A DNA stretch of 64,000 nucleotides from Eledone cirrhosa (GCA_964016885.1 OZ024745.1:17918001-17982000); one strand, 5' to 3'. Counted from the stretch's first letter, positions 35,327 to 54,946 are shown. The notes: generated by a model not told the origin, from the sequence alone. Numbers and translations are program-made.

Positions 35327-35900
35327 TAGAAAAGAATGAAATGAAATTTCGTGTCTCTCTCTTAGTAGGGCTGATACTTAAATATAAGTATGTATACCTA
35401 CATACATATATGTATACAGACGTACAGTAGTATGCATATATATACATACATGCACCCATATCTATATATATATATATATGTACGTATGGGTTTACCGAAC
35501 ATTTATTATAATGCTCTGTTTGTCTGTAAACAAACAGCCCGCATTAAGCCGTACAGTGTTCGGCAACCATCGTTGCCCTTTTGTTCAACACTGACAGACG
35601 AATGATGTACTAGTTTCAAGCTTATTAGCTATCGTCAGCATCGTATATCTTCCTGTCAGATGATTGAACGTTTGAAAGTATATACTTTCCTTATGCATAT
35701 TAACGGCAGAGCAGCCTAATTTGCATATCGAGGGCGTTAGTCGGCTGGGCACACCGAAAACGATAAATGGAAAAGAATGAAATGAAATTTCATTTCTCAC
35801 TCTTAGTACGGCTGATACTTAAATATAAGTATGTATATGTACATATATATATGTATACAGATGAACAGAAGTATGTATATATATACATACATGCACACAT
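35327..35900 (-). mobile_element. ~1.3 units of a 440-bp HHR-bearing element related to the 467-bp array
   Basis: Direct repeat aaagaatgaaatgaaatttc at 35331 and 35771. HHR at 35604-35642(-): gatg-CTGACGA-tagctaataagctt-GAAA-ctag-TA-catc. Confidence 0.8.
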
Positions 35901-36027
35901 ATATATATATATATATATATATATATCGCTGTACCCGCAACCGCTCTGTATAATCAGTTCCTGATTATTACTGGAATTCTATAAGAATTCACCATCTATA
36001 ATTTTCAACAAACATCGGAGAGTACTA

Positions 36028-36069
36028 AGCTCTGATGATCACCAACATTGTGAAACAGGGCTGTCAGCT
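36028..36069 (+). ncRNA. Type I hammerhead motif
   Basis: agct-CTGATGA-tcaccaacattgt-GAAA-cagggctg-TC-agct; stem II is weak. Confidence 0.6.
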
Positions 36070-49483: not shown

Positions 49484-52400
49484 TTTCATACAACGGCGCC
49501 AGGTTCAAAATTCCTTGTGACAATTAAAACAATGGAAGCTATGAATGAACATGATTTATCTTTCCTTATTTGCATGCACAAAGAATATTCTTTAGGCGTG
49601 AAATAGATAATTACACTCTACTCTCTGAAATGATTTTTAGTATCCAAACCATATCTCTGTAATAAGATGTGTTATATTTATGTGAGTTCCGAGAGCCACG
49701 CCATGTATTTTCAACAAAATATACAACAGTAAACGTGCATACATTGGGCTAGCCCCATCCATTACCTAGTATATTTTAAATGATTGATCCATGAGGAATG
49801 CATCGTACATGTGAATTGAAAGCAGCTACGTTATACGTTAATTTATTAATTTCATAAAGTTGTTATAGCTATGAGCAAAGAGGTAAATGTCATTAACGTT
49901 CATTTTGTTATTTGTAAGAACCGTTCGCTAATTTGGAATCGCAGAGAATTGAGGGTTTTGAAGAAGTAGGGTAAGTATTTAGAGCCCGATTTGCAGTGTA
50001 CACATAGCATCAGTGACAAGAGAAAGAAACGGCAGTTTGTAATGACGACACGGAAATGATGAGAAACAAGTTAGCTCTATGCATATGAAACCTATGTAAC
50101 AGCAAATATGTCAATCTGATTAGATAAAACTTCTGTAGACAATTCCAATGCCTATATGAGTGATAGGATGTTATTTAGCCAAGTCAGCTTTCTTTAAATG
50201 TGATTTAGAGTATTTGTGGATGTCGTAGAAGCAACATCCCAGATGTTGAAGTATAATATAATTGTACTGATCAACGTAACTTTTTAGGATGCTAGTACTT
50301 ATTAGAAAAATGCGTATTGTCTAATTCTGAATGGCACGTGTAGTCGTTACGTTTGTCTAATGAGGTCAAACAGTAAAGCATATATCATGGTAGTAGATAC
50401 TTGTTTCTACTTTTTAAGAGGAATATAAGATCTTTGTATTTTTGGAGAAAGTGATTAAATATATTGTTAGCCTCTTCTCTTGTACTCCACAAATACTGTA
50501 ATAACCAAGCCTGTGTTTATGAATATAAACCACTTATATTATATGGGATTTATATAAAATTGCTATTTCGTATCATGAGGATGTTCATAGAATATATGTA
50601 GGTGTTTACCTTCAGTCAAGACATGATTGATATAAGGATAGTTTGATATAAGTGGTATGAGAAGATAGCCATGGAAGAAAAGAGATATCATAATAAATAC
50701 ATCAAACCGCACTCTACGAAAAGTTATATTAGGTTCCTCGTTACATAACGTATAATAATTTTAGACTCCGAGTATCTTGAATATAAATCAATGCAAATAT
50801 AGTTCTTCCTCCGTAATTTACACAGAATATCTTCAGATTTTGTTTCCTTACATCTATGTATATACCTAAATATCTATATATGATAATGAAATTATAAAAA
50901 AAATAATGGATAGACATCGAACCTTGCAATGTTTAGTTATATTTTGAGGTTTGTGATACCACACATCTTAAGTGATATATGCAGATAAATGGCCACATAA
51001 AAACAGACAGAAGAATGCAAATAAGCATATACAGTGACAGAAAGACACACATACATAAATACACATACAGCAAACCAAATCATAATATTCAAATAAAATA
51101 CACACATTCAGAGACATATAATGTAATTTTAAAATATTGCCGACTTCCTGTCTATTCGTCTTTCAAAGTATTTTATAGTTAGCTATAAAATATGTCAGAA
51201 TAAACACAACTTAAAGTCTTTTACGTTGTTCGAACGTTCATAAGTAAAAATGTGTGTTTGTATTCAACAAATTAGTTTTTAGTTTTCATTTATATTTTCC
51301 TTTATGCGTCATTTTTTGACGACTCATAAAGAGCAATTTTATTGTCTGGAATTTACTTGTTTCTGTTTTATTTCAAAGATTGGTATATAATGTAAACAAC
51401 ATGACAAAGAGCAATAAAATCTACAAGAATATGTTTTGAAATGTGAACAAACAAACAAAAAAAATTAATTCTCAGCAGCAGATGGGGATCAAGAAATAAT
51501 TATCATGAGTTATTATTTTAACATGGGAATAGACAAGTAAATCGATTTGTATTTTATTTCAAAGCAAATGCTGGAACATAAAATAAACAGCCATTGAATT
51601 TTGAACAATGCAGTCGGTGATGTAAACAAAAAGGTTTCTTTGTGTTACATGAAGGAAATTTATAGACCTGTCTACAAAAAGAAAACAGAAAACTAAACAT
51701 ATGATTCAACAGAAAACCCCGAGGGATTTGGTGAGAAGCGCGGCATATAGTTAATCATTTTTATAGGACATAAATATATGTACGTAATCTAATAATTAAT
51801 TACCAGTGGGAGAATATTTGTTAATGGATTTTCAGTTGTTTCCTCAATGTGACTTAACTTTATAAAAGTGTTTAGGAATATGAGATTTTTAAAAGACTAA
51901 TATAGATGCACTCATAGGTTTCATTTTAGAACTTTTAGTAATTTCTCTCTTTTGCTCTCTACTGTAATAGTTTAAGAATCACAAATAACTATTAGAATTA
52001 GTAATATGCTATTAGCAAATTTATAATCGGAAGAAACATTAATGCTACTGATGTGAAAATATAAGTTATTGCTTCAGTAATATGAAGTTGAAACGATCTT
52101 CTGTACTATTTATAATTTCGGAGGCGTTGTGGGAAATTGCTAACTGTATTTAATAGAAAAATCCATCTTGCACGAGTTTTATGGACGGAGAATCTATACA
52201 AGTAAACACAATCCTTTCTTCTCAGAACATCGGATTTCTGGAGTACCATCTCTAGTTATGTCTTTCCTTCAGTTATAGACATTCAATAATGTAAGCGTAT
52301 CAGAAACATTAATTTTCACAGACACGTGACCTGTAGAAAATGTAATTGTAGGAAGATGATTAATTGCAATTATAGCTGAAAGTTGGGACGGCTATGTTCC

Positions 52401-54330
52401 AAACTAAACACAGTATAAAATGTGTTTCAAGCCGTTAAGTTAAATAGGTCACTGCTTATCTCGTTTCCATTGCGTTACCACTTGAGAGTACTAGACCCCG
52501 CAATGGACACCAGTCCAGCGTAGGTTTAACCCCCAGCTGTTGCTGTTACTAATTCTCAGCTGAGTATACTGGAGTAACCTGAAATGAATTGTTTTTCCCA
52601 ATAAAACATTACCCAACCCAGTCATGCAATCAAAATAATCATATTATATTCATACGTCAAACACTATAAATGCAGGAAAACCTACCTACAGTACTTGCAG
52701 ATTGGAGCAGAAATATTCATCCTACCAAAGTAACATTTTGTTCGTCAGAAGATAGGAATCGTATCCCCATTATAAATTATAAAGTTTAATGAAGTTATTC
52801 GATGGGGACTACATACAAATGTCCTTTAGATAGGATGAATGAAACAGTCTTCGAAAACTGTTCATGTTAGATAGCAGGTGTCCATTCATAAATCACGGGT
52901 ACCGCTGTACATTCCATCACGTCCAATGGGTTATGTGCCAAACGGATTATTTTTCATGGTCAAAAATGTATATTGAATCTAGGATATTTAAAATAGATTT
53001 AAACCCAAATTTCCTATCCCACTGGACAGTTGTGAAAATAGATTTTTTTGTTATATTCTGCCTGATTGGTATAATTCAAGTTAACGGGAAAAACGTTCAG
53101 TTTCACTTCGGCGAACCGAACGGTAGCACAGGCTCATAGTATACGGCAAATATGATTTCGTATCCCATGAATAACGTTGTTCAATTTTCAAAATCAACCC
53201 ATCACTCAGACACATTATATATATATATATATATATATATATATATATATATATATATATATACTTACATACGTGAATGTATACATACAATAGATATGTG
53301 TATGTGTTTGTGAATGTGCATTTATATATGTTTCTGAGTATGTAATATACAACACAGTTTTGTTTCGTTCGAGCCCTCCATGTAATTGCAATATTTATTC
53401 TGAATATCAAATCAGATTCTTGAATTCCTCTGACACTCAAACGACGTACTGTGCTTTACTATCTCAACATTAATATTTTGAATTTGGAGAATTTTCATGA
53501 AGATGTTTCGACATCGAGCCAATTATAATCACTTATAATTATGAATATTAAAATATGGATTCATATGTGAGGATTGCTTATAATTACGTAAGCTTGTCAT
53601 TGAAATCCATTTAGAATTTAATGGAAATCCGTTTTGTATTTAATACGATATAAATATTTAAATCCAATTTATGCCTGTATTCATACAATTATTAGATATG
53701 CAAATAACTGCATATTTACAGGACCCTGACTAATGTTGGAACATTATCGATTAAAACCATGATAATATATTGCAATTATGTAACAAAATATTTGCAAAAC
53801 AAATTTATTGACATTCTGCGATATGAGGTACACTATCGCACCAGGGAATACGGTGAGCTTAGTGCTTCCGATCTAACCATACCCAGATCCACATCACAAG
53901 GTGTGTAACGGGTGAATCAGTTGATGGGAATCTGGTTCTGCTGTCTAGAACTAGAACGCTACTGATCAATGTGTGCAGGCACATATATATATATATATAT
54001 ATATATATATATATATATATGTGCCTGCACACATTGATCAGTAGCGTTCTATATATATATATATATATATATATATATATATATAGTTACGTATATATAT
54101 ATATATGCATATACATATATATATATATATATATACATATATATATATATGTATGTATTATCTATATATATATATATATAGTTACGTATATATATATATA
54201 TATATATATATATATATATATACATATACATATATATATATACATATATATATATATATACATATATATATATGTGTATGTATTATCTATATATATATAT
54301 ATATATATATATATATATATATATATATAA

Positions 54331-54946
54331 CCGGAAAAAATGAAACGAAATTTCATTTCCCACTCTTAGTGCGGCTGTTACTTAAGTATAACTATGTACA
54401 CGTACATACATATATGTATACAGACGTACAGTAGTATGTATATATATGTACATACATGCACACATATATATATGCACGTATGGATTGACCGAGCATTATA
54501 ATAAATGTTCGGTGAATCCATACGTGCATTTATATATATGTGCATGTATGTATATATATATACATACTACTGTACGTCTGTATACATATATGTATGTACG
54601 TGTACATAGTTATATTTAAGTAACAGCCGCACTAAGAGTGGGGAATGAAATTTCGTTTCATTTTTTCCGTTTATCGTTTTCGGTGCACCCGGCCGATTAA
54701 CCCACTCGATATGCAAATTGGGCTGCTCAACCGTTGGTATGCATAAGGTAAGTATATACGTTCAACAATCTGACAGGAAGGTATACGTTGCTGACGATAG
54801 CTAATAAGCTTGAAACTAGTACAGCGTTCCTTTGTCAGTGTTGAACAAACCAGCAACGATCGTTGCTGGACACTACGGCTTAATACGGGATGTTTGTTTA
54901 TAAGCACACCGAGCATTATAATAAATGTTCGGTGAATCCATACGTG
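54331..54946. mobile_element. 420-bp HHR unit (+) preceded by an inverted terminal segment; same family as 35327-35900
   Basis: 54331-54490 is the reverse complement of 54510-54669. accgagcattataataaatgttcgg repeats at 54488 and 54908. HHR at 54785-54827: acgttg-CTGACGA-tagctaataagctt-GAAA-ctag-TA-cagcgt. Confidence 0.85.

What the first reader, a model, noticed from the sequence alone, without database searches (positions are those of the whole stretch)
35327..54946. Dispersed family of 420/440/467-bp HHR units with a conserved skeleton and a fixed 3' terminus
Seen: elements at 35327-35900 (440-bp period) and 54331-54946 (420-bp period) are well diverged from the 467-bp unit but keep the same ordered motifs on the HHR strand: GAAAT..TTCGTTTC segment, TTTATCG, ATGCAAATT (octamer-like), and an HHR with CTAG stem III. 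Stems I and II differ in sequence but still pair (aatattg/caatatt, gatg/catc, acgttg/cagcgt; gttgt/acaac, agct/agct). All three loci end about 10-15 nt after the TTTCGTTTC/TTTCATTTC motif (29779, 35327, 54331). Inference: selection acts on RNA structure and on a defined reverse-transcription start signal, so this is a mobile RNA family rather than a satellite.
Basis: partly seen in the sequence, partly recalled or inferred. Interest (0 to 1): 0.82.

Follow-up and report, generated by a model that had tools for sequence, protein, structure and literature searches.

The report
Retrozymes with paired Penelope-type ends
These repeats are copies of a known kind of small non-coding jumping element with a predicted self-cutting RNA motif; their back-to-back insertions stop at two fixed points, one per arm, as do those of a Penelope-type retrotransposon in the same genome, which suggests that an enzyme of that type likely copies them from both sides of a DNA break.

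Summary
The motifs are real. The 467-, ~435- and ~420-bp units are subfamilies of a non-LTR retrozyme: a type I hammerhead with a 2-bp palindromic stem III, about 35,500 octamer-plus-core units in a 3.0-Gb animal genome, mostly bordered by (TA)n.

The 'fixed 3′ terminus' is half right. There are two termini, 57–74 nt apart, and 159 of 185 outer 3′ ends fall on them. Of 54 head-to-head insertions, 52 have one arm ending at each site and none has two distal ends. A co-resident Neptune-type Penelope-like element (PLE) shows the same rule (10 of 10 contiguous pairs). This points to PLE-driven priming from both cut strands. No PLE sharing the retrozyme end sequence was found.

The 'octamer' matches the element at −77 to −79 of this genome's U6, U6atac and MRP genes. 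It is followed by YCAS and TATA, spaced as in U1/U2/U5, so it is likely an internal snRNA-type promoter rather than an RNA signal. Cleavage, circles and transcription were not tested.

This scan has reported both features before, in this genome and others.

The parts
26696..28110 (-). Family A (467 bp) left arm, about 3.0 units; its 3′ end at 26696 is at the proximal site (unit position about 230) and runs into (TA)n
28106..29779 (+). Family A right arm, about 3.6 units; its 3′ end at 29779 is at the distal site (about 304); joined head-to-head to the left arm with about 5 nt of overlap
28507..28551 (+). Type I hammerhead motif of unit A (G10.1-C11.1, stem III ACTAGT, predicted cut after 28544); further copies with cores at 28981 and 29448 (+) and 27889, 27422, 26955 (-)
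28880..28930 (+). Promoter-like block of unit A: TATGCAAATTAG, CCAC at +17, TATA-like at +42 (one of six such blocks; the copy at 28413 reads TATGAAAAT)
35327..35911 (-). Family B element, about 1.36 units (period about 439); 3′ end at the distal site, running into (GATA)n; only one arm seen
35602..35644 (-). Hammerhead motif of B (core starts 35638; U10.1-U11.1; N17 = A at 35608)
35678..35727 (-). Promoter-like block of B: TATGCAAATTAG, +17 word (TCTG in this copy, TCAG in most copies), GTATATAC at +42
54331..54526 (-). Family C left arm, about 0.45 unit; 3′ end at the distal site, running into (TA)n
54488..54946 (+). Family C right arm, about 1.1 units (period about 420); ends at neither standard site, in an internal TA-rich stretch
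54785..54827 (+). Hammerhead motif of C (core starts 54791; U10.1-U11.1; N17 at 54821)
54710..54760 (+). Promoter-like block of C: TATGCAAATTGG, TCAA at +17, GTATATAC at +42
26633..26696 (.). (TA)n tract at the A insertion (the other side is 29779-29815); similar tracts at 35259-35326 (GATA)n, 53983-54329 and from 54947
20532..23263 (+). Broken copy of the Neptune-type Penelope-like element used for comparison (GIY-YIG at 22387-22752, hammerhead motif at 23120, ends at its own proximal site before (TA)n)

Best explanation
The three loci are copies of a high-copy non-coding retrozyme family with a predicted type I hammerhead, and their insertions end at two fixed unit positions, one per arm, which likely records copying by a Penelope-type reverse transcriptase/endonuclease priming from both cut DNA strands. 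Steps: (1) inferred: each unit is transcribed from an internal snRNA-type promoter (octamer, YCAS at +17, TATA at +41 to +44) that would start RNA about 73 nt after the octamer, shortly upstream of the ribozyme core; the polymerase is not determined. (2) Inferred from the known class: read-through RNA is cut by ribozyme dimers into unit-length RNAs that can circularise. (3) Shown: insertions mostly border (TA)n-type microsatellites, and their 3′ ends fall on a proximal or a distal site 57-74 nt apart. (4) Shown: head-to-head insertions carry one of each end, the arms stop at unrelated unit positions, and they are mostly joined by short microhomology. (5) Inferred: one enzyme complex nicks both strands and starts two cDNAs, one at each site, on one repeated template (a circle copied round, or a homogeneous multimer); the two cDNAs are then joined.
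For: Copy number: 22,959 + 12,558 pattern matches against 4 + 1 in reversed-pattern controls. Termini: 121 insertions gave 185 outer 3′ ends, 87 distal, 72 proximal and 26 other. Pairing: 52 of 54 two-armed insertions are distal+proximal, 2 proximal+proximal, 0 distal+distal; binomial p 8e-14. The Neptune-type PLE (775-aa RT + GIY-YIG frame) has two ends about 41 nt apart before (TA)n, and 10 of 10 inverted pairs with at least 89% coverage are distal+proximal. Arm junctions: 36 of 52 show overlap; only 3 of 51 are long palindromes, and 43 of 51 arms stop at unrelated positions. One template per insertion: family A units differ by 0.09% between arms of one locus and by 5.09% between loci, and variants absent from other sampled loci are fixed in all units of both arms in L094 (2), L095 (4) and L097 (9). 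Ribozyme stems: 92.3% of cells paired, 6 of 13 pairs changed on both sides. Promoter: ATG(C/G)(A/T)AAT at -77 to -79 and TATA at +47 to +49 in 5 of 5 Pol III genes tabulated; YCAGT at -55 to -57 in U1, U2 and U5; families A-G carry the octamer plus YCAS at +17. Literature: PLE tails at one end (PMC8557442, PMC3846280, passages), RT starting at two internal sites and extending both strands (PMC11167929, parts 1-2 of 4), retrozymes as PLE dependants (10.64898/2026.07.22.740005, parts 1-3 of 5).
Against: No RNA data were obtained, so transcription, cleavage and circles are untested. No PLE shares end sequence or promoter with the retrozymes: the Neptune pLTR has CCAAT/TATA words, and no octamer followed any GIY-YIG hit listed; only one PLE family was sampled in depth. 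In vitro, PMC11167929 saw no difference in start site between strands, which does not predict strict pairing. 26 of 185 ends lie elsewhere, 64 of 172 anchored ends had no paired partner, and the pairing count sees only ends at the two anchors. Three inverted PLE pairs were set aside for coverage below 89% (L231 and L258 distal+distal, L259 proximal+distal). Octamer-to-TATA spacing is 4-6 nt shorter than in Pol III genes, U1/U2/U5 lack the octamer, and in A-D the octamer also lies in a predicted RNA stem. Octamer-less hammerhead repeats also spread (L209). B, C and D have U10.1-U11.1, which may lower activity. Antisense strands fold almost as well. Some arrays mix B and C variants (listing), which a single circle would not give. 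Sampling leans to best BLAST hits and the start of contig C1.
Confidence: 0.72

Rival explanations
1. Same family, but the paired ends are made after one priming event: a single cDNA folds back or switches strand, is copied back, and the PLE endonuclease cuts the intermediate at the second site (resolution model).
For: PMC8557442 (passage) attributes the tail to endonuclease-mediated resolution, and PMC3846280 (passage) argues for self-priming from junction palindromes. Three junctions are long palindromes (L094, L095, L193) and 8 of 51 are mirror-like. It explains strict pairing naturally.
Against: 43 of 51 junctions are not mirror-like, and 8 observed against 4.7 expected is not significant (p 0.096). 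The distal arm is the longer in only 27 of 51, and proximal arms of about 15 and 30 units face distal arms of under one unit (L192, L179/L180). A template jump rather than a fold-back is not excluded.
Confidence: 0.17
2. The distal end is simply the oligo(U) 3′ end of a Pol III transcript made from a U6-type promoter, so the element works like a SINE with a ribozyme, and only the proximal end is an internal start.
For: The octamer is shared with Pol III genes only. In A, C, D and F the first run of four or more T after the predicted start lies within about 30 nt of the distal end. A Pol III promoter is reported for the schistosome hammerhead repeat (cited in PMC2220036 and PMC6765202).
Against: T-run avoidance is not significant against dinucleotide shuffles (P 0.14-1.0), and family E has three internal runs. 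Distal-ended arms span up to 7.8 whole units, crossing every T run and promoter. The Neptune PLE has the same two-end pattern without this promoter. YCAS-to-TATA spacing matches the Pol II genes U1/U2/U5.
Confidence: 0.07
3. An ordinary satellite or DNA-level mobile repeat (Helitron/MITE-like, or recombinational spreading), in which the hammerhead and octamer are relics.
For: Arrays of 15-30 units exist (L192, L179/L180), both strands fold similarly, and the A-to-G strand bias that would mark an RNA stage was not significant in the larger test (38 against 28, p 0.13).
Against: Fixed 3′ ends with variable 5′ ends, pairing 52 of 54, the same footprint as a retrotransposon, compensatory changes in the ribozyme, and older arrays that are not homogenised (4-6% within L212 and L215).
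Confidence: 0.04

Closest known systems
Metazoan non-LTR retrozymes (coral, mussel, axolotl: PMC7229834, passages read; vertebrate survey 10.64898/2026.07.22.740005, parts 1-3 of 5 read, supplements closed)
   Same: Non-coding units of 150-450+ bp with one type I hammerhead each, low GC, monomers to multimers, thousands of dispersed copies, co-resident with PLEs.
   Different: In what I read, these papers infer the PLE link from shared ribozymes, co-occurrence and pLTR similarity. They do not describe two fixed ends paired across inverted arms, microsatellite targeting or an internal promoter. Here no pLTR homology was found, and circles and cleavage were not tested.
Endonuclease-bearing Penelope-like elements and their 'tail' (PMC8557442 and PMC3846280, passages; Poseidon of Anolis in vitro, PMC11167929, parts 1-2 of 4)
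   Same: Partial tandems, an inverted 5′-truncated copy, an extension present at one end only, AT-rich or (TA)n targets, a dimer-type hammerhead; two internal RT start sites and extension of both strands in vitro.
   Different: No ORF. The tail is 57-74 nt rather than 30-40. Arms hold many whole units. The papers call the tail optional or 'often' one-ended and saw no strand difference in vitro, whereas here the pairing is nearly strict.
Newt satellite 2 (snRNA-type promoter, Pol II) and schistosome hammerhead repeats (Pol III promoter); seen only as cited in PMC2220036 and PMC6765202, originals not held
   Same: Tandem hammerhead units reported to carry their own small-RNA-gene promoter.
   Different: The block here combines the host's Pol III-gene octamer with the Pol II-gene YCAG-to-TATA spacing and is shared by families with little other similarity; its activity is untested.
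L1 twin priming (recalled; PMC2837659 seen only in a search listing)
   Same: Two target ends prime two cDNAs that are joined by microhomology into an inverted insertion.
   Different: In L1, as recalled, the second priming site is variable and the two parts do not overlap. Here both starts are fixed and both arms repeat the same unit.

Membership tests
Non-LTR retrozyme | Tandem or partial-tandem non-coding unit of a few hundred bp with a type I hammerhead in each unit | tested here: met
   Units of 337-467 bp, one motif each
Non-LTR retrozyme | Dispersed multi-copy, low GC, no LTR structure or ORF | tested here: met
   About 35,500 pattern matches; hits on many contigs; no coding frame recognisable in the units; PBS/PPT not searched
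Non-LTR retrozyme | Self-cleavage of the transcript | not testable with these tools
   Core complete and stems covary; B, C and D have U10.1-U11.1; needs an in vitro assay
Non-LTR retrozyme | Accumulates as linear and circular unit-length RNA | not tested
   No RNA reads were obtained; only indirect support from locus-fixed variants in both arms
Non-LTR retrozyme | Target-site duplication when present | tested here: inconclusive
   Flanks are mostly (TA)n on both sides, which hides any duplication
Type I hammerhead, dimer-type | CUGANGA, GAAA and UH core with stems I and II and a 1-2 bp palindromic stem III | tested here: met
   description from PMC4209133 passages
Type I hammerhead, dimer-type | Conserved G10.1-C11.1 pair | tested here: inconclusive
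   Met in A (3 of 13 rows), U-U in B, C and D (10 of 13 rows); the Neptune pLTR motif also has U-U; the paper on such variants was not held
PLE-mobilised element | Inverted 5′-truncated arm, tail at one end, AT-rich target | tested here: met
   52 of 54; PLE comparison 10 of 10
PLE-mobilised element | Sequence homology to the pLTR of an autonomous partner | tested here: inconclusive
   None seen with the one Neptune family sampled in depth or the GIY-YIG fragments in fetched loci; other PLE families not surveyed
Autonomous Penelope-like element | RT plus GIY-YIG open reading frame | tested here: not met
   Units are non-coding
U6-type (Pol III type 3) promoter of this genome | Octamer-like word at -77 to -79 with TATA 47-49 nt after its start | tested here: not met
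   Word present, but TATA at +41 to +44
U1/U2/U5-type snRNA promoter of this genome | YCAGT about 26-27 nt before an AT-rich box at about -30 | tested here: inconclusive
   YCAS at +17 and TATA 24-27 nt later in families A-G, but with an added octamer and without the upstream TTACCTCCCTT word; no transcription data
Satellite DNA under concerted evolution | Long homogenised arrays without fixed ends | tested here: not met
   Most loci hold 1-6 units with fixed 3′ ends; older arrays diverge 4-6% internally

The most novel reading that the evidence does not exclude
A Penelope-type protein dimer holds one circular retrozyme RNA asymmetrically and starts rolling-circle reverse transcription from both strands of a cut (TA)n target, one active site at each end of the tail. 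The RNA is made from a captured hybrid snRNA promoter built into every unit, so each insertion is born self-transcribing. The near-strict pairing of ends would then be a general, so far unquantified rule of PLE integration.
Probability: 0.35. Interest if true: 0.75.

Novelty: new variant of a known kind. Interest (0 to 1): 0.5.

Why it matters
How animal retrozymes are transcribed and inserted, and how PLEs make their inverted, tailed insertions, are open questions in the papers read. This family gives tens of thousands of insertion records of a short RNA. They turn a loosely described 'optional tail' into a near-strict rule that is shared with a co-resident PLE with an open 775-aa frame. That makes the mechanism testable in the existing in vitro PLE assay and suggests a compact small-RNA promoter to test. 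The class itself is known, and this scan has already noted both features on other DNA.

Tried and rejected
1. Rfam at gathering threshold: 0 matches. The E-value scan was dominated by TA-rich microRNA models, which are chance matches.
2. Automated end-calling needed several passes. Searches used anchors that also hit the antisense of the palindromic hairpin or unrelated sequence (33 of 43 and 49 of 55 discordant pairs, with visible false ends). They were replaced. The 5′-end histogram had a coordinate error for minus arms and was redone. The first hammerhead census missed CTAG motifs and was redone.
3. 5′ ends do not pile up at the cleavage site (10 of 104 in positions 1-30, 7.0 expected).
4. 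Pol III terminator test (T-run avoidance): not significant.
5. A-to-G editing scars, a lead from earlier notes: 14 A>G against 3 T>C among locus-fixed variants of family A (p 0.006; L192 left out, and inherited variants can be counted more than once). Among locus-singleton variants of A-D it was 38 against 28 (p 0.13). Inconclusive.
6. Whole-unit folding z-scores (-3.7 to -10.4) do not pick the strand, because antisense gives -3.6 to -8.6.
7. Fold-back as the main source of inversions was rejected.
8. An autonomous PLE with the retrozyme's end or octamer was not found.
9. The lead that Tx1 LINEs insert at retrozyme start sites was not tested; two window LINEs (583-3993 and 34044-35260) have (GATA)n-type tracts beside them instead.
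10. No whole-unit covariance model or R-scape test was run.
11. No expression data were obtained.
12. Literature searches. Coats 1994, Ferbeyre 1998 and Lünse 2016 were not held. The bioRxiv supplements were closed and other supplements were not opened; they and Repbase entries may describe these ends or this promoter.
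Full report
Observation. Each unit has a type I hammerhead with a complete core and a two-pair palindromic stem III. PMC4209133 (passages) describes this form as working in dimers. On 13 distinct motif variants from families A-D, 92.3% of cells pair and 6 of 13 pairs change on both sides; slid controls pair 21-45%. The rows are related, so this is support and not a probability. 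The ~435- and ~420-bp units have U-U at 10.1-11.1. The 467-bp locus and the 54331-54946 locus are each two arms joined head to head. Their other ends (26696 and 54946) are not at the 'fixed' terminus.

Family. The window lies in a 3.0-Gb animal genome. The pattern of octamer, 60-90 nt, then hammerhead core has 22,959 matches for CTGA[AGT]GA and 12,558 for CTGACGA, against 4 and 1 for the reversed patterns. The listed matches include the window's families A (467), B (~431-440) and C (~420), a B-like family D (466), and families E, F and G. E, F and G show little or no alignable sequence with A-D outside short stretches (G was not in the pairwise comparison). B and C are 89% identical; A is 67-69% identical to B, C and D over about half the unit.

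Termini. I numbered units from the predicted cleavage site (family A numbering is one base high). Arm 3′ ends cluster at two positions: A about 230 and 304, B about 213-219 and 272-276, C about 213-219 and 275, D about 251 and 310. In 104 merged genome segments, 121 insertions gave 185 outer 3′ ends: 87 distal, 72 proximal, 26 other. Five of the 26 are at a standard position that the anchors missed. Of 172 anchored ends, 162 run into a microsatellite, mostly (TA)n. Among two-armed insertions with both ends anchored, 52 of 54 have one distal and one proximal end, 2 have two proximal ends and none has two distal ends (binomial p 8e-14). The other 64 anchored ends had no paired partner. The sample is the best BLAST hits to three queries plus the first matches on contig C1, so it is not random.

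Comparison with an autonomous element. A Neptune-type PLE (the clade label is my reading of its motifs, not a tree) has 33,187 first-look candidates and copies with an open 775-aa RT plus GIY-YIG frame. It also ends before (TA)n at two sites about 41 nt apart. Of 13 inverted pairs examined, the 10 with at least 89% coverage between the ends are all distal+proximal. The three set aside were L231 and L258 (distal+distal) and L259 (proximal+distal). Its pLTR has a hammerhead motif with U10.1-U11.1 but no octamer and no visible end-sequence similarity to the retrozymes. So the footprint is shared, but the partner is not identified.

Mechanism. PMC11167929 (parts 1-2 of 4) shows that a PLE protein cuts and extends both strands of AT-rich DNA and starts reverse transcription at two internal RNA sites whose interval is the genomic tail; it saw no strand difference. 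PMC8557442 and PMC3846280 (passages) describe a tail often at one end only and propose endonuclease resolution or self-priming. Here 43 of 51 junctions join arms that stop at unrelated unit positions, only 3 are long palindromes, 36 of 52 overlap (mostly by 1-10 bases), and neither arm type is regularly the longer (27 of 51). I infer two independently primed cDNAs with coupled start sites. Family A units differ by 0.09% between the arms of one locus and by 5.09% between loci. Variants absent from other sampled loci are fixed in every unit of both arms at three loci. This fits one template copied repeatedly, either a circle or a homogeneous multimer; the data do not separate these. Some arrays mix B and C variants (listing).

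The octamer. The genome's U6 genes at three loci, U6atac and RNase MRP have ATG(C/G)(A/T)AAT at -77 to -79 and TATA 47-49 nt after its start. One U6 copy examined (L130) has the word displaced, and four U6atac hits without it look like pseudogenes. U1, U2 and U5 genes lack the word but have YCAGT at -55 to -57. Retrozyme families A-G carry the octamer, YCAS at +17 and a TATA-like box at +41 to +44. For E the box is clear in the copies listed but not in the reference copy. The 8-nt B/C length difference falls after the TATA box, and F repeats the octamer-plus-TCAG module three times. The predicted start, near +73, is 8-28 nt before the ribozyme core. This is a hybrid of the two host promoter types, so I do not file it as either. 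The octamer also lies in a predicted RNA stem, whose partner strand varies while the octamer does not. Internal promoters are already reported for newt and schistosome hammerhead repeats (seen only as cited in PMC2220036 and PMC6765202). A 310-bp hammerhead repeat without the octamer also forms two-armed arrays, so the block is not required for spread.

Negative and open results. T-run avoidance was not significant. A-to-G strand bias was significant in one small count and not in the larger one. Folding energy does not pick the strand. No RNA data were obtained.

Comparison and verdict. By sequence criteria this is a non-LTR retrozyme (PMC7229834, passages; bioRxiv 10.64898/2026.07.22.740005, parts 1-3 of 5); cleavage and circular RNA are untested. 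In seven literature searches I found no account of strictly paired ends in retrozyme insertions or of this promoter layout, but several originals and all supplements were not seen. Earlier notes of this scan report two-armed insertions in other genomes and the promoter in this genome; I had reached both readings before looking, and those notes are not independent evidence. Verdict: new variant of a known kind, interest 0.5.

Noticed in passing
window 14276(+), 26238(+), 36032(+), 38371(-), 58350(-)/58635(+): Further hammerhead-like motifs of other families. The 26238 type follows GIY-YIG fragments in L014, L100 and L108. The 35927-36180 element shares words with the 310-bp family in L209.
   Followed up: partly
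window 583-3993(-), 6157-9383(-), 34044-35260(-): L1/Tx1-like LINE copies, one with a 1136-aa open EN+RT+zf frame. The 34044-35260 copy has (GATA)n-type tracts on both sides, and the B element sits in one of them.
   Followed up: partly
window 32888-33322(-): GIY-YIG fragment of a second PLE type; many relatives lie in the flanks of fetched loci.
   Followed up: partly
L174, L175, L177: U6atac copies without promoter. Two lie beside TA-rich repeats and one abuts a reversed family F unit, suggesting that snRNAs are retroposed by the same machinery.
   Followed up: no
L209:6100-8501: A 310-bp hammerhead repeat with U10.1-U11.1 and no octamer, two-armed, at least 7 near-identical units, next to a family D array.
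   Followed up: partly
L184, L154, L182 (family F): The octamer-plus-TCAG module is repeated three times in tandem ahead of the TATA-like box.
   Followed up: partly
L007:1930-2340: A 12-nt inverted copy of the B distal end is joined directly to a PLE GIY-YIG fragment, inside a larger mirrored duplication (L217).
   Followed up: no
L111-L142, about -250 to -270 of the genes: A TTACCTCCCTT-like word upstream of most U1, U2 and U6 copies, absent from the retrozyme sense strands and from the U5 copies checked.
   Followed up: partly
G000:C1:33967910/33968332, 19519894/19520321, 41129919/41130294: Neighbouring units of B and C type within one array, pointing to recombination or template switching (listing).
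   Followed up: no
window 48907-49481, 32534-32832, 25384-25661: Tandem repeats of 172, 99 and 140 bp, not examined.
   Followed up: no
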